Part shown: one piece after another, positions 3,879 to 17,163 of the stretch
How positions within the stretch are numbered: the stretch's first letter is position 1
Layout of the letters: each line of letters begins with the position of its first letter
Made by a program: the position numbers and the translations under genes
Assembly (NCBI RefSeq): GCF_009914755.1
Contig: NC_060936.1
DNA from: the human T2T-CHM13v2.0 reference genome, Homo sapiens
DNA: 64,000 bases
Reading direction: 5' to 3' (one strand)
The notes under the pieces: model-generated
The model's database searches: none
What the model saw: the letters and a program-made list of their open reading frames with translations, nothing else
Told to the model about the DNA's origin: nothing

Positions 3879-4488
3879 TTTCATGCGTGTCCATGTGAAG
3901 AGACCACCAAATAGGCTTTGTGTGAGCAACATGGCTGTTTATTTCACCTGGGTGCAGGTGGGCTGAGTCCAAAAAGAGAGTCAGCGAAGGGAGATAAGGG
4001 TGGGGCCGTTTTATAGGATTTGGGTAGGTAAAGGAAAATTACAGTCAAAGGGGGTTTGTTCTCTGGCGGGTAGGAGTGGGGGTCGCAAGGTGCTCAGTGG
4101 GCAGGAGTGGGGGTCACAAGGTGCTCAGTGGGGGTGCTTTTTGAGCCAGGATGAGCCAGGAAAAGGACTTTCACAAGGTAATGTCATCAGTTAAGGCAAG
4201 GACCGGCCATTTACACTTCTTTTGTGGTGGAATGTCATCAGTTAAGGTGGGGCAAGGCATATTCACTTCTTTTGTGATTCTTCAGTTACTTCAGGCCATC
4301 TGGGCGTATATGTGAGTTAAGGCAAGGACCGGCCATTTACACTTCTTTTGTGGTGGAATGTCATCAGTTAAGGTGGGGCAAGGCATATTCACTTCTTTTG
4401 TGATTCTTCAGTTACTTCAGGCCATCTGGGCGTATATGTGCAAGTCACAGGGGATGTGATGGCTTGGCTTGGGCTCAGAGGCCTGACA
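3879..4488 (-). mobile_element. HERV-H solo LTR (LTR7 family) with an internal 126-bp tandem duplication
   Basis: Minus strand tgtcaggcctctgagcccaag...catgaaa; exact 5-bp TSD cttat (3874-3878 / 4489-4493). Confidence 0.93.
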
Positions 4489-4901
4489 CTTATATGTGTT
4501 GATTTATGTCTTGTCTATAACTTCTGTCTCCCTAAAATGTATAAAACCAAACTATAACCTGACTGCCTCAGGCACACTTTCTCAGGACCTCTTTAGACTT
4601 TACTGTGGGCCATGGTCACTCATCTTGACTTAGAATAAACCTCTTAAAATATTTCACAGAGTTTGGCTTTTTCATAACACCACTGCAGACTATTTTCCAC
4701 ATAGCAGCCTGGTTAATCTTTTAAAATAGCAGTCATAATTTGTATCACTTTCAAAACTCTTCTAATGCTTCCCAACTCACTTAGAATAAAATCCACAGTT
4801 CTTAGAGTGATCCAGTACACCCTCCAAAATCAAGTTATGTCCCTGTCCTCATCCATATCACTCTCTTTCTACTCACCCTGCTTCAACCACACTGACCTCT
4901 T

Positions 4902-5329
4902 TGTCTCACACATCCATGTAAAGAGACCACCAAACTGGCTCTGTGTGAGAAACAAGGCTGTTTATTTCACCTGGGTGCAGGCAGGCTGAGTCCAAAAAGA
5001 GAGTCAGCAAAGGGTGGTGGGATTATCATTAGTTCTTATAAGTTTTGGGGTAGGCAGTGGAGTTAGGAGCAATGTTTTGCCAGCAGGGGTTAGATCTCAT
5101 GAAGTATATTCTCAAGGGTGGGGAGAATTACAAAGAACTTTCTTAAGGGTTGGGGAGATTATAAAGAACATTGATCAGTTAGGGTGGGGCAGAAACACAA
5201 TGGTGGAATGTCATCAGTTAAGGCTATTTTCACTTCTTTTGTGGATCTTCAGTTGCTTCAGGCCATCTGGATGTATACGTGCAGGTCACAGGGGATATGA
5301 TGGCTTAGCTTGGGCTCAGAGGCCTGACA
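4902..5329 (-). mobile_element. HERV-H solo LTR (LTR7 family, LTR7C-like)
   Basis: tgtcaggcctctgagcccaag start on minus; exact TSD ctctt (4897-4901 / 5330-5334). Confidence 0.92.
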
Positions 5330-5558
5330 CTCTTGATGCTGTGGCAATAGGCCAAGCTTATTCCCATCCAGGGTCCTTGCACTTGTTATTCCTTCCACCT
5401 AGAATCTTTTTCTTCAGATGTCTGTATGTTTCACTCCTTCAGAATTCTAACTAATGAGATTTTTCCCTGAATATCTCTATCTAAAATAGCACCCTTGTAC
5501 TGTCCCAAACTCCCTGTGTTATTTTGCTTTTTTTTTTTTTATTCTCAGCACTCATCAC

Positions 5559-5993
5559 TGTCACACACGTCCATGTGAAGAGACCACCAAACAGGCTTTG
5601 TGTGAGTGATAAAGCCTTTTAATTACCTGAGTGCAGGTGGGCTGGGTCCAAAAAGAGACTCAGCGAAGGGAGATAGGGGTGGGGCCATTTTATAGGATTT
5701 CGGTGGGTAGTGGAAAATTATAGTCAAAGGGGGTTGTTCTCTGGTGGACAGGGGCAGGGGGTTACAAGGTGCTCAGTGGGAGAGGTTCTGAGCCAGGAGA
5801 AGGAATTTCACAAGGTTAACCTTTCAGTTAAGGTGGGGCAGGAACAAATCAAAATGGTGGAATGTCATCAGTTAAGGCAGGAACTGGCCATTTTCACTTA
5901 TTTTGTGATTCTTCACTTGCTTCAGGCCATCAGGATATATATGTGCAGGTCACAGGGGATATGATGGCTTAGCTTAGGCTCAGAGGCCTGACA
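5559..5993 (-). mobile_element. HERV-H LTR7, 3'-LTR type (left arm of the inverted HERV-H element)
   Basis: LTR7 on minus strand preceded by the polypurine tract aagaaggcaggaa (5994-6006) and HERV-H env/3'UTR sequence. Confidence 0.93.
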
Positions 5994-6206
5994 TTCCTGC
6001 CTTCTTATATTAATAAGAAAAATAACATAAAATAGTGTTGAAGTGTTGGGGTAGCGAAAATTTTTGGGAGGTGGTATGGAGAGATAATGGGCGATGTTTC
6101 TCAGGGCTGCTTCGAGTGGGATTAGGGGCGAAGTGGGAACCTAGAGTGGGACAGACTAAGCTGGAGGAAGATTTTGTGGTAAGGGGTAATATTATGGGGG
6201 TGTTCG

Positions 6207-9200
6207 TGTAGCAGGACGAGCCGCAGACAAAAGCTCTCAGACACCGAGTTGTAGAAGGAAGGGCTTTATTCAGCTGGGAGCATTGGCAAGCTACTGTCTT
6301 AAAATCCGAGCTCCCTGAGTGAGCAATTCCTGTCCTTTTTAAGGGCTCACAACTCTAAGGATTTCACACGAAGGGGTCATGATTGATTTGAGCAAGCAGG
6401 GGGTACATGACAGGGGCTGCATGCACCAGTGGTCAGAGTGGAACAGAACAGAGAAGGGAGTTTCACAATGTTCTTTTATACCATGTCTGGAATCTATGGA
6501 TAACAATGGTTTCTAAGTCATGAGTTGATTTTGAACTACTAGGTTTAGGCCAGGCAGGCCCAGGCCTGGTTTTGGGCCTGGCACCAGGCTGCCTGTCTTT
6601 GATTTCACTTCTTTGTTTTTTTCTTAAAACAGGTATTGAGTATAAAACAATATAAAACAGTATGAGAAGGTCTCTTTCTTCCCTCATTTCCCCCCTTTGA
6701 GACTCTCACTTTTTATTAGTGGGAGTTCTCACTCTTATTTTCACTATATATGTCTTCTTGTGCAATAGATTGATAGTGATTTATATAGTACACTTGTGCT
6801 GAAGCATTCTGGTGAACTAAGGTAATGATGAGGCTTTGTATCATTTGAAGAAGTACAGGTAGCAAACAAGGGAGCAGTAAGCAGGTTCTTATTACTATTA
6901 TAACTTCTATTATAAGAGTTTTAAATCCTCCTAGTGCTGGGAACTAATTTTTAAACATGGCTTCAGGGTCGAATTCATGCTACACTTGTACGGGCACATG
7001 TGTCAGTTTTGTCATATTTTTAACTATGTCTTTAACTACTTGCCTTGCTTATCTATATGTAGACAGTAACTAGTAAGGTTAAATTTCTTATAGACCTCTC
7101 TTTCAGCTGCTAGTAAGTAGTCAAAAGCCAATCTATTTTGATAGATGGCATTTCTTATCTGAGTTTCTTGCTGGGCCAAAATAGTCAAGGCTTGACCGGT
7201 TTTATTAGTGATTATTTCTAAAACAGCTTGCAACCATATGATTCGGTTGAGCATGTAAATGGGGGTATGGTAACCCTATGAGCTGTCTTGTGTCTAAGTG
7301 GCAGGCCTATAGTATTGTATAATTTTTTTTTTAGGAGGTCATTTATCATCTTTCTAATTACCTATGGCTATGCTTCGTTTTCCGTGGGAAGCATAGACAG
7401 GGAAGCCTAGGAGTTTGCCTGTTTTTATGGGCAGTAGGAAGAAAGATGGTTTAATGGTGCCAATTACACAGCTACTTATCCACTGATCAGGCAGCTTAGC
7501 ATAGGCTCTATGTCCACATATCTAGTATAATCTGGTGGGGGCAGTCTAGTCCTGGTGGAATTCTGGGTGGGCCTAGACAGGCTGCAACCTTGGAAATTTA
7601 GTGAATGGATCTCTTTCTGTGTAATTGGAACTCCACCACATAACTGTTATTTTTTTTGGGGGGGTACTATTATACAGTTTTTGTCCTAGGCAACTAAGTC
7701 ATCTTACAGAATCAGTGAATTATTTTCTTTTTCTAGCTATGCAGTCTTGTCTAATAATTGAGACTTTTAGAACCTAGAAATGATCAGGGTGATTCTTTTG
7801 TGCCAGGAATTCATCAGGAACTGGGTCTGCAGGCACTAATTCTCAGGCTTCTTATGGCCATTGATCTCTTATTACAGTTTTTCTACAAACATAACATGAA
7901 GTGACATTTAAAGACTGGGCTACGTGCTTGGCTAACTGCACAAACAAATTTCTGGTTTTTCCTGGAGTCTCAGGTACTAGCACATTTAATTCATCATAGA
8001 AAGTCTGAAATACTGGTTCTGGAGAGCGTCTTTGAACCTCATCTTTTACTAAGATATTTACTCTAGGACCTAGTCCTTTCCTATTGATGCCCAGAGATAT
8101 GTGTTCTTTTTTTCTACCTTGGGTTTAAGGGATTTGTAATTATTAATTTTAAGGGGTTGCAGCTTCCACTCATACAGGAGGGGCTGCCTTCTCCTTTTTG
8201 GAGCTAAACAGAATCTTTTTCATCTTTTTTTAAAGTAGTCTAGATGACACAAGACCAGTAATTACACACACTTGCGCATGAGCATCTTATTCTATGCCGA
8301 TTGCTATTGATAGTGGCACAAGCATTAAATTTTAGGGTTATATGCTTGGAGACCCCTCTTTCTTCTGTCCTAGCTATTACTTCACTTGTGTCACCTAGAA
8401 AAGGACCAGTCCTTAATTTTATTTTAAAAATTGTGATTATGGGAGGCTTAAAATTGGTCATAATACGCATCAGGTTGGTTATTTCCTGGGCTACATACTT
8501 TGGATAGAATAGCATTATACAAACAAGTTTCTTTTAGAGTCCTGGTACACTTATAATAACTATAAAATAATAGGACTATAGCAATCTTTTTGTCCTACCT
8601 TAGCGACTTGATGTATATACTGGGAACAGTTCTCAGTCTGAGGAAGGTCAGTTGAAGTCCTTACTGTAGAAGTCCAAATTTTAAGGAAAATGAGTCTCGG
8701 AATGAGTTTCCTCATGCTTTGGCCATGCGTGGCCCAGTCAGCTTCCGGGTGTGACTGGAGCAGGGCTTGTCAACTTCTTCAGAGTCACTTTGCAGGGGTT
8801 GGCAAAGCTACTCCTCTCCACGTACAGCTCCTAGTCTACTGATGTTTAAGGATGGTCTCGGAGGTTGGGCCCACTAGAATAAACTGAGTCCAATACTTCT
8901 ACACAGTTATGTTTGACTGGGCTCACTGATACCAGGAGCAAGGTGGCAGGGTTTAGGGTGTTGCAAACTTCAATGGTTATGCGGGGATTTTCACAGAGCA
9001 AGGTTTGGTATCTAGTTAGTCTAGCATTCATTAGCTAATTGTGTCCTTTGGTATTTATTAAAATCACCACCGCATGGGGGGACTTTATGTTTAGGTTTTG
9101 CCTACGAGTTAGCTTATCTGCTTCTTGTGCTAATAGGGCCATTGCTGCCAGGGCCCTTGGACATGGGGGCCAGCCTTGGAAACCCCATCTAGTTGTTTTG

Positions 9201-12200
9201 AGAGATAGGCCACTGGCCTTGGCCAGGGCCCTACAGTCTGGGTTAAAACTCCAACTGCTATTTTTTTTTTTTTTTTTGACACATAGAGTGTAAAAAGTTT
9301 TGTCAGGTCAGGTAGCCCCAGGTCTGGAGACGACCTGAGTTGTTTTTTTTTTTAACTCATGAAAAGCTTGTTGCTGTTGGTTGTAATACATGTAGTATTA
9401 CAGTATTACAATAAAAAATTATATTTTTATTGACTGTAATCTACTAAAATATTGACTTAAATCCTGTAACTATTTGATTTCAAGCTTTAAATTGATCTGG
9501 TATTCCTTGCGGGGCTCCAATTGCATCTAAATAGATGCGAGAGTTGAAAAACTTATAAGGGGCTTCTCTTGCTTCTCGATGTCTTATTTTTTATTTTTCC
9601 TCTTGTTGATGACATGCCAGGGTGAAAGGGATAGCCAATTGGACCAAAGTACAAGTGCCACTCTAGTTATTTGGCAGAGTGCCTAGTAAAGGTCCATCAC
9701 AATACCACCACACATCCACTCAGGGATGAACAAGAGATGACTGATTGATAAGCTCTTGAAAATTCTTAAGCTCACTGCATCCCTTCAGGTCTCCAAGGAA
9801 TGCTAAGTCTCCTCCCTGCCATGAGAGACATGAAGTGAACTTAGTGTTGGGAGACAGAAGCTGGATGGCCCTCGGGGGCTGACTCGAAGGGACTTCGGGA
9901 TATAGCAGAGAGAGCTTGGCATGACTTATTACTCCAGACTGTAGAATCCTGGAAAAGAGCTACCATGCCACCCACGCCTGGTCGACTGGAGGACCACCTT
10001 AGTGGAAGGGGGACAATCAGGGCCTCTGGCCTGCCATGTGCACAAGCATAACAATTGCTTTTTTTTAACATGCAGATGGAATATTTGATCCATTTCAACC
10101 AGGCATTTGTATCTTGGTATGCTCTCTTAATTGCCAAAGTTTGTTTGAAGTCTTTAACTTCTATGATCCTCTAGTAGAATGAATGTTTCCTTTAGCACCT
10201 ATTTTTATTAGTTTTTAGACCAAAGAAAGCTAAACACCATTTTATATTTAATAATGCTTCTTGTATGATTTTTATACCAGATAAGTTAAATTTTACCTTT
10301 ATATTAGTGTGTTATTGATGTTAAACTTAATTTTAATAAAATCTTGTAGACATATTTATCCAACTTTTCATGTTTCACCATAAGGTAAGATTTTATAGAC
10401 TCTTTTTAACTTTTTATAATTTTTGTTAAAGAGCAGGTTGGTGCTTTAAGAAAAACTTGTTGCATTTTTACTTTAATGTCCAGTTCACAGAAAAACTGGA
10501 TGGTACATTTTTAACTTTAGCTAATATGTTTAAACACATAATTTTTTTTTTACAATTAATGTTTTAAAACTTGCTTAAACTTTTAAAACAATAATTTTTT
10601 TTAACTTTTTAATGTAGGTAAAAATCCACATTCTTATGCCTCCTTATGATCTTTTTACCAAAGGTATATTTTACTTTTTTTAGACACCTTGCACATAAAC
10701 TATTTCTTCAATAGTACTCAGGAGGCCTTATTACTTTTAAATTACACAACATTTTTTGCATAAATTTGTCTTTTATAACATTTGTTCTTTCATGACTTTT
10801 GTAGACAATTTTTCGACATGTCTTAACTTTCTGACTTATTAAAAACATTTTTTTTTCTTTAAACAACCAGTTAATTTCTTTCAGGACAAGAATTTACCAT
10901 ATAACACTCTTTTTATATAAATTCTGCCTCCCCCTTTTTTTTTTCCTTTTTTTTTTTTTCTGAAGATAACCATTTTTTTTTAAAGTGAACTTCCTTTATG
11001 TCTGTGGACTAGACTATCTAAGGCCACAAGATTAGGAGTTACTATAATACATGTGACACTGTTAACTTTTAGCAAACTTCACTTTTGTTGAAAACCTTGT
11101 AAGTTTGGGATTTCAATTATCCTTTGCTATTAATAAGAGCTTGTTTAGTCTAAATTAACTTAGAATAGGTATAGATGGCCTCTTTTTCTCTCTGCTTGTC
11201 TTTCTTTGCCTCTTCCAGCCGCTTATGCTGCTGTTCTCTTAACTACTGTGGGGGGGAAGGGGGTCTAAAACCAGCTGTAACTGTGTATGTATGGAAACTG
11301 GTCTGGGTGCTTTGGCTTACAGGTTACCTTGTGCCATACCTTTTAAACAAGGAAACTGTCTAGGCTTCCTTCTGATGGCCAACCCACCTCTAATGCTGGC
11401 CAGTCTATTTCACACAAAGTTTTAAGTTTTCCTGGTGCCATAGAACAACTGTAATATCCCTTAAATCCTTTCTTGAAATTTTTCAACATAGTGGCTTGGG
11501 CTTACTTTGATCCTGATCCATGCTTCTTTGAGACAAAACACCATGATCACACCACAAGCACACCACAAAACAAAGAACAAGTAAAAAAGGGCACCCACAC
11601 ACTTTTGCAGTTTACACCAAACCAAAATCAAAACCAAAATCAGAGTATCCAGAAATCCAAGCCAGGTCAAAAACTGAAACCAAAGTATCAAGCAATCTAA
11701 GTCAAGTCAAAAACAAAAACCAAAGTGCCAGTACAGGCACACCGTTGGTGATCAGGCCACGCTTCCACTCAAATGGAGTGGGCAAGTTCCCAAGACCAGT
11801 CCTGTCAAGCAATTCAAACCAAGTCAAAACCAAAACCAAAACCAAAGTGCTGATAAAGGCATGCTGTGGGTGATCAGACCACGCTTCCACTCAAACAGAG
11901 TGGGCAAGTTCCAAAGACTAGTCTTACCAAGTTTCAGATGTCCAGACTCCAAGTGCCAGTTCCTTCCCGGTGTTCAGCCACTGTGTTAATCCTCCATGGG
12001 GGCCTGCTACTCGCTGCTCTGGTGAGGCGTTCCACTGGGACAATTGCCTACCTGGGAGCGCTACTTGGATTGCATCACTCAGGCTGGCTGGAGTCCCCTG
12101 CAGGGATGCTCCACAGGACAGGCCTAAGCTGCCTAAGGGGCTGCCTTGGCCGTCCGTCAGTCACCTTGCTTCCCGGTCAGGGAACCAAGAAATGTAGCAG

Positions 12201-12691
12201 GACGAGCCACAGACAAAACCTCTCGGACACCGAGTTGTAGAAGGAAGGGCTTTATTCAGCTGGGAGCATCGGCAAGCTACTGTCTTAAAATCCGAGCTCC
12301 CCAAGTGAGCAATTCCTATCCCTTTTAAGGGACACACAACTTTTTAAGGGCTCACAACTCTAAGGGTTTCACAGAAAGGGTCGTGATTGATTTGAGCAAG
12401 CAGGGGGTACGTGACGGGCTGCATGTACCAGTGGTCAGAGTGGAACAGAACAGACCAGGGAGTAATTTCACAGTGTTCTTTTATACAATGTCTGGAATCT
12501 ATGGATAACATTAGTTTCTAAGTCATGAGTTGATTTTTAGCTACTAGGTTTAGGCCAGGCAGGCCCAGGCCTGGTTTTGGGCCTGGCGCCTGGCTGCCTG
12601 TCTTTGATTTCACTTCTTTGTTTTTTTCTTAAAACAGGTACTGCATATAAAACAATATAAAACAATATGAGAGGGTCTCTCTCTTCCCTCA
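6207..12691 (-). mobile_element. Two-LTR Harlequin/HERV-E-group provirus: 3' LTR2B 6207-6686, internal 6687-12192, 5' LTR2B 12193-12691; non-coding mosaic internal region
   Basis: Two direct LTRs (TGAGGGAAG...TCCTGCTACA on minus); PBS-Glu; PPT aaaggggggaaa at 6687-6698; env TM relic [14 protein letters not shown] (7036-7254); pol relic NARLTRYQTLLCENP (8846-9031); near-TSD ttcg/ttag. Confidence 0.9.
12170..12187 (-). promoter_or_regulatory. Primer-binding site for tRNA-Glu
   Basis: Minus strand TGGTTCCCTGACCGGGAA just downstream of the 5' LTR; complementary to the tRNA-Glu 3' end. Confidence 0.88.
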
Positions 12692-12911
12692 TTAGAAGGA
12701 GCATTTGTCATATAGAATGATTGGTGATGGCCTGTATATGGTTTTGGATGAATTGAGAAACTAAATGGAAGACACAAGGTCTGAATAAGAGAAGGAGAAA
12801 AACAGGTATTAAAAGACAAAGAAATGGGAGCACCCAGGACATCCAATTAGAGAATGACCAAGGGGGTGCAGCGTAATTACTTTCTTGTTGGTGAGTTTTT
12901 TGGACTCTATC

Positions 12912-14276
12912 AAACTTTATCAGTCCTTCAGACCCAAGTTGATTCTCTAGCTGCAGTTGTCCTCCAAAACTGCAGAGGCCTTGACTTACTCATTGCTGAA
13001 AAAGGAGGACTCTGTATATTTTTAAATGAAGAGTTTTGTTTTTACCTACATCAATCTGGCCTGGTGTATGACAACATAAAAAAACTCAAGGATAGAGCCC
13101 CAAAACTTGCCAACCAAGCAAGTAATTATGCTGAACCCCCATGGTCACTCTCTAATTGGATATTCTGGTGTTACTGGGGGTCCTTGCTCCCAGAACTCCC
13201 AAGATGATGGCTAGCACTTACAAAATGGCGGCAAGCCTCGTGTTCTGTGACCTGGGGTTCTTGGCCTCACAGGTTCCAAGGAATGGAATCTTGGGCCATG
13301 CGGTGAGTGTTATAGCTCTATTAGAAGCCATGGGTCACGGAAGAGAACCGTGGAACCCAGTGACTAGTGTTCAGCTCGATTAGGACGAACCCAGGCACTT
13401 AGCTGTGCAGGAACAATGGCAAGCCTTTAGACCGATCGGGAGCGGCAATGGGTGCCTCGCTGGATCAGGAGCACAGCAGACACCCTGCTGGATTGGGAGG
13501 GATGGAAGTCAGTGGCGGGTCTGCGATAGCAGCAAACAGCAGTGGTAGACGGCGAGCAAAAGCTCAGCTTGAGCTGTAACAAACATGGACCAAAAGAGAG
13601 TGCAGTTGCAAGATTTAATAGAGTGAAGACAGAGCTCCCATACAAAGGGAGGGGACCCAAAGAGCGTAGCCATTGCCACCTCGAATGCCTGGGTTTGTAT
13701 CCTGATCATTGTCCCTCCCGCTGTGCTCTCAGGCAATAGATGATTGGCTATTTCCTTACCTCCTGTTTTTGCCTAATTAGCATTTTAGTGAACTCTCTTT
13801 GCTATCTGATTGGTCGGGTGTGAGCTAAGTTGCAAGTCCTGTGTTTAAAGGTGGAAGTGGTCACCTTCCCAGCTAGGCTTAGGGATTCTTAGTCGGCTTA
13901 GGAAATCCAGCTAGTCCTGTCTCTCACTGGGTCCTCCCAATTCTTTGTCCTTTAATACCTGTTTTTCTCCTTCTCTTATTCAGACCTTGTGTCTTCCATT
14001 TAGTTTCTCAATTCATCCAAAACCGTATCCAGGCCATCACCAATCATTCTATACACAAATGCTCTTTCTAACAACCCCACAATATCACCCCTTACCACAA
14101 AATCTTCCTTCAGCTTAATGTCTCCCACTCTAGGTTCCCACGCCACCCCTAATCCTGCTCGAAGCAGCCCTGAGAAACATCATGATCTCTCCATACCTCC
14201 CCACAAAAATTTCTGCTGCCCCAACACTTCAACACTATTTTATGTTATTTTTCTTATTCATATAAGAAGACAGGAA
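12912..14276 (+). mobile_element. HERV-H env TM fragment and 3'UTR, plus arm (split by LTR17)
   Basis: Translates QTLSVLQTQVDSLAAVVLQNCRGLDLLIAEKGGLCIFLNEEFCFY (gamma-type TM with immunosuppressive domain); PPT aagaagacaggaa 14264-14276. Confidence 0.92.
13169..13926 (-). mobile_element. HERV-W solo LTR (LTR17)
   Basis: Minus strand starts tgagagacaggactagctggatttcct..., ends ...ggacccccagtaaca; exact 4-bp TSD ctgg. Confidence 0.92.
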
Positions 14277-14635
14277 TGTCAGGCCTCTGAGCCCAGGCCT
14301 GCATGTATATATCCAGATGACCTGAAGTAACTGAAGAATCACAAAAGAAGTGATAATGTGATAATGGCCAGTTCCTGCTTTAACTGATGACATTACCTTG
14401 TGAAATTCCTTCTCCTGGCTCAGAACCTCCCCCACTGAGCACCTTGTGACCCCCACCCCTGCCCGGAAGAGAACAACCCCCTTTGACTGTAATTTTCCAC
14501 TACCCACAGAAATCCTATAAAAAGGCCCCACCCCTATCTCCCTTGGACTCAGCCCACCTGCACCCAGGTGATTAAAAAGCTTTATTGCTCACACAAAGCC
14601 TGTTTGGTGGTCTCTTCACACAGACGCGCATGACA
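14277..14635 (+). mobile_element. HERV-H LTR7, 3'-LTR type (right arm of the inverted HERV-H element)
   Basis: tgtcaggcctctgagccc...cgcgcatgaca directly after the PPT. Confidence 0.93.
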
Positions 14636-17163
14636 TTCACCACCTGATATATAGCATTTTATGTGTTTCCTTACAACAGAACATAAGCTCTGTGAGGACA
14701 GATAATTTTGTTCATTGCTATATCCTCAGCATCCTGAAGAGAACCTGGCACAAAGTGTATGTTCAATAAAAATTTGTTGAATAAATGAAGTTATGGCAAT
14801 GAAGAAATTCATTATATGGAAACTTTCCTCTGTGGTTCTTCTTGAAAAATTTTAAACAAGTTCTGACTACCAGCTTTCAAATAGGTATTGGCTCTTATAT
14901 ATATATATATATTTTTAATCAATCCCTTAATATTTTGTCCACTCACTAAGGTAGAGTCTAACATCTTGCTTTTTATCTAGGTCCCTATATACCACAGTTC
15001 ACATTCTTCTTTAGTTGATGGAAAAAATGTCCAGTAGATAAATCTGAATTTGTGTGCAGACATGTTTTATTGTATTTGCATTACACTCTGGTATAATTAA
15101 TCCTAACCTGAATCACTGGAGTAAATTAGTTTGTTATTATGATTATAAATGAATTTTATTTGTTTTTCTTCGATATAAGATCATTTTGGATGATCTAGCC
15201 AATTCCTTCCTATCAGATGAATTTAGAAATAAATAATCTAGGAAAATTGTCCCACAATTTAAAAAAAAAACAGATCTGAAACAAGACTTATGATCAACAT
15301 TCCAGTTTGTTCTCTAACACATTTAGTGTGCTAAACATTCTGGGAACCTATTAATAATCTATAAGGGAGTTATACATATTTTATACTAAAGTATGTCTGA
15401 AAAGGCTATACCTTTATAGGTAATAAGCTCCTTACAAAAACACTTTCATGAATTTTTTATATTTATTTGGAAAAACAAAAATCTTCTCTCACTTTAGAAG
15501 GTCAGATATGACACCCAACTATTAATAAAATAGCGTTTGGTCTTGGATTCAGTAGTTGGGTAGCTTCCAATCAATGTCGAAAGATAGTTATCTGTTATAA
15601 TTTAATCAAGCAAGACATTGATATATAAAGTATAGTACAGCCTCTTATTCTTCACAGATAAATTAAATGAGTAAAGGAATAAAATGCTTACAAAAAGAAT
15701 CTCTACCTGAAGAATGACGATATTAGATAATAGAAAGACTATTAAACTCAATGTGTATTTTGATAACCTTTTTGGATGAGTGGGGTCAACCAGCTTATTC
15801 ACATTTCTTTAAACCTTAGTTTATTCATCTGTAAACAATGTGATTGGACTAGCTATCTCTAAAGTTCTTTCCACCTCCAGAATTTCTCATTTCTCAATTT
15901 GGCTTATTGTTATTATTTCCACAAGATATATTTTCTTTACACCTTGTATTTCCAGACATCCCTACAAAAATGTAAAGATGAAAAACAATGAATGCTAATA
16001 AACGCAATGCTGATAAAATCTTAAGACATCTTAAGAAATAATTATTTTCCTAAAACTTAATCAAATTATTCAAAAATGGAAAGAATAATGCATAATTTAA
16101 AGTAAAGCTGGCATGTGTAATGGAAAAATAATAATCCATGTTTTACTGTTTATCTTTTGATATGAAATATCTGAAGGCTGCTTACTGTGATAGGGAAAAG
16201 TTTTGTTGACTTAGTTTAGTTTGTTGGAAATGATTTTGAAGTTAATATCTGTATATATTCTGTCTGTAAGTGGAAGGATTTGGAGGAGCCCTGTTAAGAA
16301 GGCAGTGACATATAAAAATCTCTTTACAGCAACAACAAAACTCACTTCAAGAGAAGGAAAAACTTTCCTTATTTTTCTTTTTGTATCTGCTCACTGCCTT
16401 AAAACCACTGCTTCATTGTTGAAACTTTATCAGATTAATTAACATTTTGAGATTTTGTGATTACCATTACATGTTTTCAACATTAACTCAGCCTGTATGT
16501 CAACATGAGCTAGTTCTAAGTCTTGTGACTAAGTTAAACTTAACTACAGATAAAGTTATAATATCTTGTGAAATGGTAGTTTTAAAGGTGTCATCCTAAC
16601 CTTTTATATATCATTTTATTTTAACAAAAATTGTATAGGAACCCTTCTGGATTTCTGAGTAGTTCTATGAGTTTTGACTCAGTGTATGAGTTTCAGTTAT
16701 TCACACATATTCTTTCTCTTTCTATCAGCATTCTAGAGGTGCTTTGAATAGATTACCTGCTGCTTCTCATTTCCTCATTCTATTGTGATAGTACAGAGAG
16801 CTACATACATACATACATCGAAGCACATAGAATTTTTTTCTGAGAAAATGTGAAGCCAATTACAAAATACATTGAATTTCTGCATTAAGAGCCTATTCCT
16901 GAATCATAGTGACATGAGCAATTAGAAAAAATTGCCTGAAAATGAAGTACTCTTGAGAATATACCTTAGAGCTCCTGGCTGTTAATAATTTCTTAAGTAG
17001 ATGTGGACAAACAGTGAAAGATTGTGACATCCTTATGAGGAACAGTTTGTCCATTACAATATTTTATGCTATCAAACTCTTTGGTAATTTCCATGGCAGA
17101 GTAAATGTTACACAAAAAGCTCTCCAGAATTCTTAAGAATAATAAATGAATTTCTGTAATACA

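What the first reader, a model, noticed from the sequence alone, without database searches (positions are those of the whole stretch)
5554..14640. HERV-H element made of two 3' ends with inverted LTRs, apparently integrated as one unit (U5-out at both ends)
Seen: after removing the later LTR2B provirus (6207-12691) and LTR17 (13169-13926), the structure is LTR7(-)/PPT/env-tail(-) | junction at about 12911 | env TM(+)/PPT/LTR7(+). Both LTRs are preceded by a polypurine tract, and there is no PBS, gag or pol. It was therefore a roughly 1.8-kb imperfect palindrome with a spacer of about 180 bp (12912-13090). The flanks are atcac (5554-5558) and ttcac (14636-14640), a 4/5 match at the 5-bp TSD length seen for the other LTR7s here, and the host L2 reads straight through the site. 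The two LTRs differ structurally (435 vs 359 bp, three block indels). Known: normal proviruses have direct LTRs with one U3 and one U5 end joined to the host, and recombination between nested proviruses does not flip the outermost LTR. Inference: either integrase joined two U5 ends from two different cDNAs at one target site and the inner ends were fused by repair, or a fold-back reverse-transcription product integrated. Either would be a rarely described germline integration class. The later insertions into each arm may have stabilised the palindrome.
Basis: partly seen in the sequence, partly recalled or inferred. Interest (0 to 1): 0.88.

Follow-up and report, generated by a model that had tools for sequence, protein, structure and literature searches.

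The report
Two inverted HERV-H tails, one site
Two back-to-back, oppositely oriented tail ends of the ancient human retrovirus HERV-H sit at what looks like a single insertion site, and they come from two different virus lineages, so this is most likely a fossil of one faulty reverse-transcription and integration event.

Summary
The layout is LTR7(-) 5559-5993, PPT and env tail(-), junction at 12911|12912, env TM(+), PPT, LTR7(+) 14277-14635. A younger provirus (6207-12691) and a solo LTR (13169-13926) sit inside the arms. No HERV-H leader, gag, pol or SU is present. Both outer ends are complete U5 termini, flanked by atcac and ttcac.

New result: the two LTRs belong to different structural LTR7 lineages. 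The right one shares two block deletions, at identical edges, with 29 of 29 relatives. The left one keeps both blocks. This argues strongly against a same-template fold-back and against a later inverted duplication. It leaves two templates.

Best reading (0.58): one aberrant event inserted a DNA with two U5 ends made from two HERV-H templates.

Main rival (0.25): two separate insertions at almost the same nucleotide, followed by an inner deletion. This rival gains from the setting, because three HERV-H-family insertions lie within about 632 bp of ancestral DNA.

Weak points: the flanks match only 4 of 5, and copies of the host repeat cannot resolve 5 bp. No outgroup genome was available, so the empty site is untested.

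Verdict: a new variant of a known kind, of moderate interest.

The parts
5554..5558 (.). Left flank 5-mer atcac, the putative target-site duplication copy
   Evidence: Read. Solo LTR7s make 5-bp duplications: 16 of 21 match 5/5, 4 match 4/5 and 1 matches 3/5.
5559..5993 (-). Left LTR7, 435 bp, U5 end outward. It is the long structural type that keeps both blocks.
   Evidence: 39 other genomic copies at 89-91% identity over about 420-437 bp; alignment.
5994..6206 (-). Left arm: polypurine tract and the distal part of the HERV-H env tail / 3' region
   Evidence: Inverted repeats I2 and I3. 88% identity to the right arm and up to 90% to other copies.
6207..12691 (-). LTRs at 6207-6686 and 12193-12691. 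A purine tract in reverse complement lies at 6687-6698. A PBS-like 18-mer lies at 12170-12187 (match to tRNA-Glu is recalled). Flanks ttcg/ttag.
   Evidence: Direct repeats D1, D2 and D5-D7 at 91-94%; K2P 0.062; read. Six of its nine stop-to-stop ORFs of at least 90 aa were scanned and gave no Pfam match.
12692..12911 (-). Left arm: proximal env tail. Its inner end corresponds to right-arm position about 13090.
   Evidence: 84-91% identity to 39 other HERV-H loci.
12911..12912 (.). Central junction of the two arms, with 1-2 nt of overlap and no filler
   Evidence: 20 of 21 plus-sense alignments start at 12911, and 34 of 39 minus-sense alignments end at 12911.
12912..13168 (+). Right arm: env transmembrane-subunit fragment. 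The part 12912-13090 is the spacer that has no partner in the left arm.
   Evidence: Pfam TLV_coat E 1.2e-24; 91-94% identity to 39 genomic copies.
13169..13926 (.).
   Evidence: Read. It interrupts the arm homology: I7 ends at 13168 and I1 restarts at 13927.
13927..14276 (+). Right arm: env tail and polypurine tract
14277..14635 (+). Right LTR7, 359 bp, U5 end outward. It is the short structural type that lacks a 23-bp block and a block of about 50 bp.
   Evidence: 39 other copies at 84-88% identity. Both gaps have identical edges in 29 of 29 relatives.
14636..14640 (.). Right flank 5-mer ttcac. Its first two bases, TT, equal the dinucleotide that follows U5 in 5' LTR loci.
   Evidence: Read. 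Eleven 5' LTR loci have TTTGGTG after U5.
3879..4488 (-). Neighbouring solo LTR7 with its own 5/5 duplication, cttat. It is part of the local insertion cluster.
   Evidence: Read; 73% match to the right LTR.
4902..5329 (-). Neighbouring solo LTR of an LTR7-related family with its own 5/5 duplication, ctctt
   Evidence: Read. 39 genomic relatives at 90-93% identity, about 432 bp.

Best explanation
This is a fossil of one aberrant HERV-H insertion. The inserted DNA had a U5 terminus at both ends and was made from two different HERV-H templates, one carrying the long LTR7 type and one the short type. The templates were probably two RNAs packaged in one particle.

Inferred steps:
1. In reverse transcription, the right-hand LTR (U3-R-U5, U5 outward) is the first double-stranded end to be made.
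2. Two stalled or truncated products, each carrying such an end, became joined tail to tail inside env. Either a growing minus strand switched onto the other minus strand, or repair joined the inner ends. The join shows 1-2 nt of overlap.
3. Integrase inserted the two U5 ends at one target, giving a 5-bp duplication, one copy of which later mutated. A sub-variant: integrase inserted only one end, and host repair joined the other, unprocessed U5 end. The right flank begins with TT, which is what an unprocessed end would carry.
4. Later, a second provirus and a solo LTR landed in the arms.

Shown: the anatomy, complete U5 ends, different lineages of the arms, and the absence of every 5' part.
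Inferred: a single event, the role of integrase, and co-packaging.
For: 1. Both outer ends are complete LTR termini ending in CA. Each LTR is preceded on its inner side by a purine tract and env tail. No HERV-H leader/gag or pol/SU exists in the window (0 hits for 10 probes).
2. The flanks match 4 of 5 at the 5-bp length that HERV-H uses. Among 21 solo LTR7s, 20 show at least 4/5, while mismatched pairings reach that in 5.5%.
3. The flanks belong to one old host repeat in one orientation. Local alignments of 5 of 9 fetched paralogous copies run across the site.
4. The arms come from different sources. The right LTR shares both block gaps at identical edges with 29 of 29 short-type relatives. 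All 8 long-type rows displayed (of 29) keep both blocks, as the left LTR does. Gapped identity between the two LTRs is 75%, against 84-91% to their own kin.
5. Both LTR types look contemporaneous. Median terminal branches are 0.059 and 0.051, and the arms are 0.072 and 0.095. Private substitutions of 7 and 13 in 350 shared columns do not differ significantly.
6. The arms are older than the nested provirus, whose LTR pair has K2P 0.062.
7. Recombination between LTR7 subfamilies, which implies co-packaging, is documented (PMC8912925, passages read). TSD-flanked complex elements made from two packaged RNAs are documented in plants at 2 of 400 and 2 of 4704 insertions (PMC1950507, passages read).
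8. The left arm's inner end, at about 13090, falls within a group of env-deletion breakpoints seen in other copies at 13082, 13086 and 13098. These lie just 3' of an A7 run. This hints that the end was made during reverse transcription.
Against: - The duplication is imperfect, and by itself gives a likelihood ratio of only about 4 for exactly 4/5.
- Paralogous host-repeat copies cannot tell whether 5 bp are duplicated. Alignment scores for the versions with one or two 5-mers differ by 5 units or less, in both directions.
- My recollection that the repeat consensus fits the one-5-mer version is recall, not a test.
- The locus is an HERV-H insertion cluster, with three sites in about 632 bp of ancestral DNA. 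This makes two nearby independent events less improbable than elsewhere.
- Substitution data do not separate the arms. A tree with the two arms as sisters is not rejected (AU p 0.486), and the quick tree placed them in one weak group. Only the block indels separate them.
- No second example was found. The only two minus-then-plus LTR7 pairs within 3 kb among the first 100 of 2129 U5-motif matches are ordinary. Three of their four LTRs carry their own 5/5 duplications and the fourth is a 5' LTR followed by a PBS.
- The independence of the clustered env breakpoints is not established.
Confidence: 0.58

Rival explanations
1. Two independent HERV-H proviruses, one of each LTR type, integrated head to head at the same or an abutting target in a local integration hot spot. 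A later deletion from env of one to env of the other then removed both 5' portions and anything between them.
For: - The locus holds three HERV-H-family integration sites within about 632 bp of ancestral DNA, each neighbour with a perfect 5-bp duplication.
- Elsewhere, close LTR7 neighbours in opposite orientation are not rare: 2 pairs within 3 kb among the first 100 U5-motif matches.
- The arms come from different lineages, as this model expects.
- The flank match is only 4 of 5, and 5.5% of unrelated flank pairs do as well.
- A head-to-head pair of 90%-alike proviruses would be a large near-palindrome prone to central deletion (established knowledge, not tested here).
Against: - It needs a second integration within a few bases of the end of the first. 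The three sites in the cluster are 408 and 224 bp apart, not abutting (read).
- It also needs the right orientation, plus a deletion that leaves both 3' ends intact.
- Both chr1 control pairs kept separate duplications or a PBS and about 1.5 kb between them.
- The host repeat runs through the site with no detectable loss.
- My rough estimate (inference) gives about 0.001-0.01 such structures expected genome-wide.
Confidence: 0.25
2. A same-template fold-back (self-primed) reverse-transcription product, or a post-integration inverted duplication of a single HERV-H 3' end. Either way the arms were identical at first.
For: - The geometry fits a fold-back: the short arm stops about 180 bp short of the long arm's start, with 1-2 nt of overlap.
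- In the 350 shared LTR columns the arms are 90.9% identical, and sisterhood is not rejected (AU p 0.486).
Against: - The two block indels that distinguish the LTRs have exactly the family-specific edges seen in 29 of 29 short-type copies. They were therefore inherited, not acquired afterwards.
- Only 1 shared-rare site was found in 350 columns.
- The other arm ranks 39th of 39 and 34th of 39 in the env segment, 14th and 17th of 39 in the distal tail, and 54th of 62 and 65th of 77 in the LTR.
- A later duplication would not end exactly at a U5 terminus beside a matching 5-mer.
- Conversion of the left LTR by the neighbouring LTR is not supported. It is 71% like that neighbour but 89-91% like distant long-type copies over its full length.
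Confidence: 0.04
3. An assembly or alignment artefact, or a chance juxtaposition with no common history.
For: None found. Only one assembly was examined.
Against: Each arm carries its own old insertion with its own duplication. The arms carry 7 and 13 private substitutions. The junction is embedded in unique, diverged sequence.
Confidence: 0.02

Closest known systems
TSD-flanked complex LTR-retrotransposon insertions made by aberrant template switching between two packaged RNAs (Sabot and Schulman 2007, PMC1950507; passages read)
   Same: One integration event, flanking 5-bp duplication, and two parental sequences fused before insertion. It is also a rare class: 2 of 400 and 2 of 4704 insertions.
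   Different: Those complexes are tandem. They have three LTRs in direct orientation, complete internal regions and near-identical outer LTRs. Here the two parts are inverted, both are 3' ends only, and the outer LTRs are of different types. The word 'inverted' does not occur in that paper.
Aberrant retroviral integrations in cell culture, where one end is inserted by integrase and the other by host enzymes (ASLV and HIV-1 work; PMC5041404, passages read)
   Same: The aberrant end can be joined to additional viral DNA in either orientation. The viral DNA is often truncated. The TT at the right flank would fit an unprocessed end joined by repair.
   Different: Those events usually show large host duplications, deletions or rearrangements rather than a short repeat. 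Here both ends are complete to the CA and the host repeat is continuous across the site. This one is also a germline fossil, not a culture product.
Concerted integration of two U5 donor ends from separate DNA molecules in vitro (standard integrase assays; recalled, as a listing only)
   Same: Two U5 ends suffice for a concerted reaction that yields the virus-specific duplication.
   Different: That is known as a test-tube reaction with short donors. Here it would have happened in a germline cell with reverse-transcription products.
Internal inversions in HIV-1 proviruses (2 of 78 distinct proviruses; PMC9278108, passages read) and LINE-1 twin-priming inversions (recalled)
   Same: Inverted segments created during reverse transcription.
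   Different: In those cases the outer ends stay normal (one U3 and one U5 end, or a poly-A end for LINE-1). Here the outermost LTR itself is inverted.
Neighbouring independent LTR7 insertions in opposite orientation (chr1 loci L091 and L092)
   Same: A minus-strand LTR7 followed by a plus-strand LTR7 within a few kilobases.
   Different: Three of the four LTRs there have their own perfect duplications and the fourth is a 5' LTR followed by a PBS. Host DNA with an Alu-like repeat lies between them. Here there is no host DNA between the arms, and only the outer flanks match.

Membership tests
HERV-H (LTR7 / HERVH-int) sequence | LTRs homologous to genomic LTR7 copies, with TG...CA ends | tested here: met
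   (39 other copies each, 84-91% identity); ends read.
HERV-H (LTR7 / HERVH-int) sequence | Gammaretrovirus-type env TM and HERV-H env tail next to the 3' LTR | tested here: met
   Pfam TLV_coat E 1.2e-24; 91-94% identity to 39 genomic copies.
Normal provirus | Two LTRs in direct orientation, one U3 end and one U5 end facing the host | tested here: not met
   The LTRs are inverted and U5 is outward on both sides.
Normal provirus | PBS, leader, gag and pol between the LTRs | tested here: not met
   0 hits for 10 probes in the whole window.
Normal provirus | The two LTRs are identical at integration, so they share the same structural type | tested here: not met
   435 bp against 359 bp; two family-specific block indels.
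Single integrase-mediated insertion | 5-bp target-site duplication flanking the whole insert | tested here: inconclusive
   atcac and ttcac match 4 of 5. Calibration: 20 of 21 solo LTRs reach at least 4/5, chance 5.5%. Host-repeat paralogs cannot resolve 5 bp.
Single integrase-mediated insertion | An empty orthologous site with one copy of the 5-mer and no other change | not testable with these tools
   No primate genome other than the window's own assembly is held. The left flank is unique in this genome.
Template-switch complex insertion (Sabot and Schulman type) | A shared internal LTR, direct orientation, and near-identical outer LTRs | tested here: not met
   No internal LTR7, arms inverted, outer LTRs of different types.
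One-ended aberrant integration (Hughes laboratory type) | One normal end, and one truncated or irregular end with a large host duplication, deletion or rearrangement | tested here: inconclusive
   Both ends reach the terminal CA and the host repeat is continuous to within about 10 bp. The right flank starts with TT, as an unprocessed end would.
Post-integration inverted duplication / palindrome | Arms are each other's closest relatives and share structure | tested here: not met
   Ranks of the other arm are 14th to 65th in three of four segments; block indels differ. Substitution-only sisterhood is not rejected, AU p 0.486.

The most novel reading that the evidence does not exclude
A germline record of a retroviral intasome that engaged two U5 ends supplied by two different genomes of one heterozygous HERV-H particle. 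It would have inserted a tail-to-tail chimeric reverse-transcription product with a normal 5-bp duplication. That would define a class of 'double 3'-end' integrants that repeat annotation splits into unrelated fragments and that may exist for other ERV families.
Probability: 0.45. Interest if true: 0.68.

Novelty: new variant of a known kind. Interest (0 to 1): 0.55.

Why it matters
If this was one event, it shows that a germline-invading gammaretrovirus-like element could integrate a DNA with two U5 ends and no U3 end, built from two co-packaged genomes of different subfamilies. It would then be direct structural evidence for heterozygous HERV-H particles. That same process is inferred only indirectly from the mosaic LTR7 subfamilies.

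It also gives a concrete search image: an inverted LTR pair, PPT on both inner sides, one duplication on the outside. This image could be used to count such events across ERV families and to estimate how often reverse transcription and integration go wrong in this way.

Separately, the locus is a dense HERV-H insertion cluster. This bears on whether resident LTR7s, or the chromatin they sit in, attracted further integrations.

If instead it is two events plus a deletion, it is an ordinary rearranged ERV nest.

Tried and rejected
1. Resolving the 5-bp duplication with paralogous copies of the host repeat.
- Nine copies were fetched.
- Multiple and pairwise alignments cross the site in 5 of 9, but scores for the one- versus two-5-mer versions differ by 5 units or less, in both directions.
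- A profile of six copies found only 4 further hits in about 330 kb of held DNA.
- An anchor-spacing script mis-anchored 4 of 6 copies.
- A second genome search with a more typical copy gave alignments that mostly start 20-25 bp to the right of the site.
- I gave this up as inconclusive.

2. A genome-wide scan for other cases. The pattern search counts 2129 U5 motifs but lists only the first 100, all on contig 1. The two candidate pairs there proved ordinary.

4. Pfam on six ORFs of the nested provirus gave nothing.

5. The substitution-only phylogeny of 77 LTRs is poorly resolved (13 of 74 branches starred) and cannot place the arms.

6. Gene conversion between the arms, or from the neighbouring LTR, was considered and dropped. 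The 94-96% stretch between the arms is equally conserved in other copies. The left LTR is 71% like its neighbour.

7. Literature. Eight answered full-text searches on inverted or aberrant structures listed no title or abstract describing a TSD-flanked inverted LTR pair. I opened only a few of the listed papers. A ninth search was for LTR7 subfamily background. The library lacks most subscription journals, and supplements were not opened, so older retrovirology papers may describe such structures.


Full report
**What is there.**
The window is human chr12 (hub note). The tool named the window's own assembly as G000, contig 12, and it was searchable.

Repeat finding over 5000-15500 gives nine inverted arm pairs. 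They link 5559-6204 to 14070-14635, and 12711-12911 to 13091-13168 plus 13927-14053, at 81-96% complementarity. It also gives direct repeats at 91-94% that mark the two LTRs of a nested provirus.

Reading the sequence fixes the parts:
- Left LTR7 on the minus strand, 5559-5993 (435 bp).
- Its purine tract and env tail, 5994-6206, continuing at 12692-12911.
- Junction at 12911|12912.
- Right arm env TM, 12912-13168.
- Env tail and purine tract, 13927-14276.
- Right LTR7, 14277-14635 (359 bp).

Both LTRs begin TGTCAGG and end in TGACA in their own sense, so both outer ends are complete U5 termini.

The stretch 12911-13168 is an open frame that matches Pfam TLV_coat positions 441-506 of 560, E 1.2e-24.

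Ten probes taken from other HERV-H loci found nothing anywhere in the 64-kb window. Six came from downstream of 5' LTRs and four from upstream of env TM. There is therefore no PBS, gag, pol or SU.

**Later insertions.**
The nested provirus is 6207-12691, with LTRs 6207-6686 and 12193-12691 (K2P 0.062).
- It lies on the minus strand. A purine tract in reverse complement follows the first LTR, and a PBS-like 18-mer precedes the second. Its match to tRNA-Glu is my recollection.
- Its flanks are ttcg and ttag.
- Six of its nine stop-to-stop ORFs of at least 90 aa were scanned and gave no Pfam hit.

The solo LTR 13169-13926 is flanked by ctgg on both sides. Both insertions interrupt arm homology exactly where expected. 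The names LTR2B, LTR17 and L2 could not be checked, because no repeat library was available.

**The junction.**
Against 21 loci with a complete env TM, plus-sense homology of the right arm starts at 12911 in 20 and at 12908 in one. Against 39 loci, minus-sense homology of the left arm ends at 12911 in 34. The join is therefore direct, with 1-2 nt of overlap. The left arm stops at the equivalent of right-arm position about 13090, leaving 12912-13090 as an unpaired spacer.

**Are the arms copies of one template? No.**
The right LTR's 39 best other genomic matches are copies of about 341-372 bp at 84-88% identity. The left LTR's 39 best are about 419-437 bp at 89-91%. Neither arm appears in the other's list. 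The two LTRs align at 75% once gaps are counted.

In a 77-row alignment, the right LTR lacks a 23-bp block and a block of about 50 bp, with exactly the same edges as 29 of 29 short-type copies. The left LTR has both blocks, as do all 8 long-type rows displayed (of 29) and all 6 displayed env-sampled rows.

Published work defines LTR7 subfamilies by just such blocks. It infers repeated recombination between subfamilies, which needs co-packaged RNAs (PMC8912925, passages read).

Segment by segment, I ranked the other arm among the HERV-H copies that cover each segment:

| Segment | Rank of the other arm |
|---|---|
| env | 39th of 39 and 34th of 39 |
| Distal tail | 14th and 17th of 39 |
| LTR | 54th of 62 and 65th of 77 |
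| Proximal tail | 4th and 1st of 40 |

The proximal tail is about equally conserved in all copies (93-96%).

A same-template fold-back or a later inverted duplication is therefore not tenable. Conversion of the left LTR by its neighbour is not supported either. It is 71% like that neighbour but 89-91% like distant long-type copies.

**Results that cut the other way.**
- Apart from the blocks, the two LTR types differ little.
- In 350 shared columns the arms are 90.9% identical. There are 7 private changes on the right, 13 on the left, 1 shared-rare site and only 2 clearly diagnostic sites.
- The quick tree put the arms in one weak group. The careful tree did not.
- An AU test does not reject the arms as sisters (p 0.486).
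- So the case for two sources rests on the block indels and the segment ranks, not on substitutions.

**One site or two?**
HERV-H makes 5-bp duplications. Of 21 solo LTR7s in my loci, 16 have 5/5, 4 have 4/5 and 1 has 3/5. Mismatched pairings reach at least 4/5 in 5.5%. The outer flanks here, atcac and ttcac, match 4 of 5, which is compatible but weak.

The right flank resembles many copies of an old repeat. The left flank is unique in the genome. For 5 of 9 fetched paralogs, a single local alignment runs from the left flank into the right flank. So the flanks are one host element in register, to within about 10 bp.

The paralogs are too diverged to say whether 5 bp are duplicated. By my recollection of the repeat consensus, the one-5-mer version fits without a gap. 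That is recall, not a result.

The right flank begins with TT, the dinucleotide that follows U5 before the PBS in eleven 5' LTR loci. An alternative reading is therefore an unprocessed U5 end joined by host repair, with a 3-bp overlap.

**Context: a hot spot.**
Two more LTRs of the family lie just upstream on the same strand: 3879-4488 with duplication cttat, and 4902-5329 with duplication ctctt. Both are 5/5 (read). The second belongs to a family of about 432 bp at 90-93% identity.

Removing the insertions, the three sites lie 408 and 224 bp apart. At about one LTR7 per megabase this is far from random (inference). It raises the prior for independent events.

A U5 16-mer occurs 1070 plus 1059 times in the genome. 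Among the first 100 listed, two minus-then-plus pairs lie within 3 kb. Both are ordinary. Three of their four LTRs have their own perfect duplications, and the fourth is a 5' LTR followed by a PBS. So close inverted neighbours exist, but they keep their own duplications and host DNA between them, unlike this element.

**Mechanism.**
The most economical account is one aberrant event. Two HERV-H templates of different type each gave a product carrying the early-made, U5-outward 3' LTR. The inner ends were joined in env by strand switching or repair. The two U5 ends were then inserted at one target.

Supporting points:
- Both LTR types have similar terminal branch lengths (medians 0.059 and 0.051; arms 0.072 and 0.095).
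- The arms are older than the nested provirus.
- The left arm's inner end lies among env-deletion breakpoints of other copies: 13082, 13086 and 13098, with others at 12960, 12967 and 13127. These lie next to an A7 run. That is a weak hint of a reverse-transcription pause site. I could not show that those breakpoints are independent.

Known relatives of the idea:
- TSD-flanked tandem complexes in plants (PMC1950507).
- Aberrant integrations in culture, in which a truncated end is joined to extra viral DNA in either orientation, though usually with large host changes (PMC5041404).
- Internal inversions in 2 of 78 HIV-1 proviruses (PMC9278108).
- Heterodimeric packaging in LTR elements (PMC6894440).

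I read passages only in all of these.

**Rival.**
The rival is two proviruses inserted head to head at abutting targets in this hot spot, followed by a central deletion. It explains the two lineages and tolerates the imperfect flank match. It also needs near-nucleotide coincidence, the right orientation, and a deletion that spares both 3' ends. My rough estimate is 0.001-0.01 such structures genome-wide (inference).

I give the single event 0.58, the two-event rival 0.25, same-template or duplication models 0.04 and an artefact 0.02. The rest is unassigned.

**Novelty and verdict.**
Eight answered full-text searches on inverted or aberrant structures listed no title or abstract describing a TSD-flanked inverted LTR pair. 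I opened only a few of the listed papers. The library omits most subscription journals.

I rate this a new variant of a known kind: an aberrant product of reverse transcription and integration. Interest is moderate. It is a clean and unusual fossil, but the single-event claim awaits the orthologous empty site and a genome-wide count.

Noticed in passing
window 3879-5558 (with 5559-14635): Three HERV-H-family insertions, each with a 5-bp duplication and each with U5 to the left, lie within about 632 bp of ancestral DNA. The sites are 408 and 224 bp apart. This suggests a local integration hot spot, or attraction of new integrations to a resident LTR7.
   Followed up: partly
window 3879-4488: This solo LTR7 is about 610 bp long because a stretch of about 124 bp (roughly 4190-4313) is repeated in tandem (roughly 4314-4440). 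This was seen by reading and was not run through a repeat finder. The RefSeq enhancer 3894-4314 lies inside this LTR.
   Followed up: no
window-equivalent 13082-13098 (loci L039, L048/L060, L058, L007, L005, L054): The 3' breakpoints of env deletions in other HERV-H copies gather within 17 nt, just 3' of an A7 run. The inner end of the left arm (about 13090) falls among them. This may be a template-switch hot spot. The independence of these breakpoints is not established.
   Followed up: partly
window 14636-14637: The first two bases after the right U5 end are TT, the same dinucleotide that separates U5 from the PBS in eleven 5' LTR loci. The single mismatch in the putative duplication could therefore be a retained unprocessed viral end.
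   Followed up: no
window 12834-12911: The 78 nt of the left arm next to the junction are unusually diverged. Against the right arm there are 15 differences, 9 of them transversions (K2P 0.22). Identity to any other copy is at most 90%. The same segment of the right arm reaches 94-96%.
   Followed up: no
L091 (contig 1: 94505300-94508600) and L092 (contig 1: 116870380-116873480): Two unrelated loci each hold a minus-strand solo LTR7 and, about 1.5 kb to its right, a plus-strand LTR7. Three of the four LTRs have their own perfect duplications (GTTTC and ATAAC in L091, GAAGC in L092). The fourth is a 5' LTR followed by a PBS. That makes two close pairs among only 100 listed motifs, which suggests that clustering of HERV-H insertions is general.
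   Followed up: partly
window 12170-12187: The nested provirus has an 18-nt PBS-like sequence 5 nt from its LTR. By my recollection it is complementary to the 3' end of tRNA-Glu, which would fit an HERV-E-type element. Six of its nine stop-to-stop ORFs of at least 90 aa were scanned and gave no Pfam match.
   Followed up: partly
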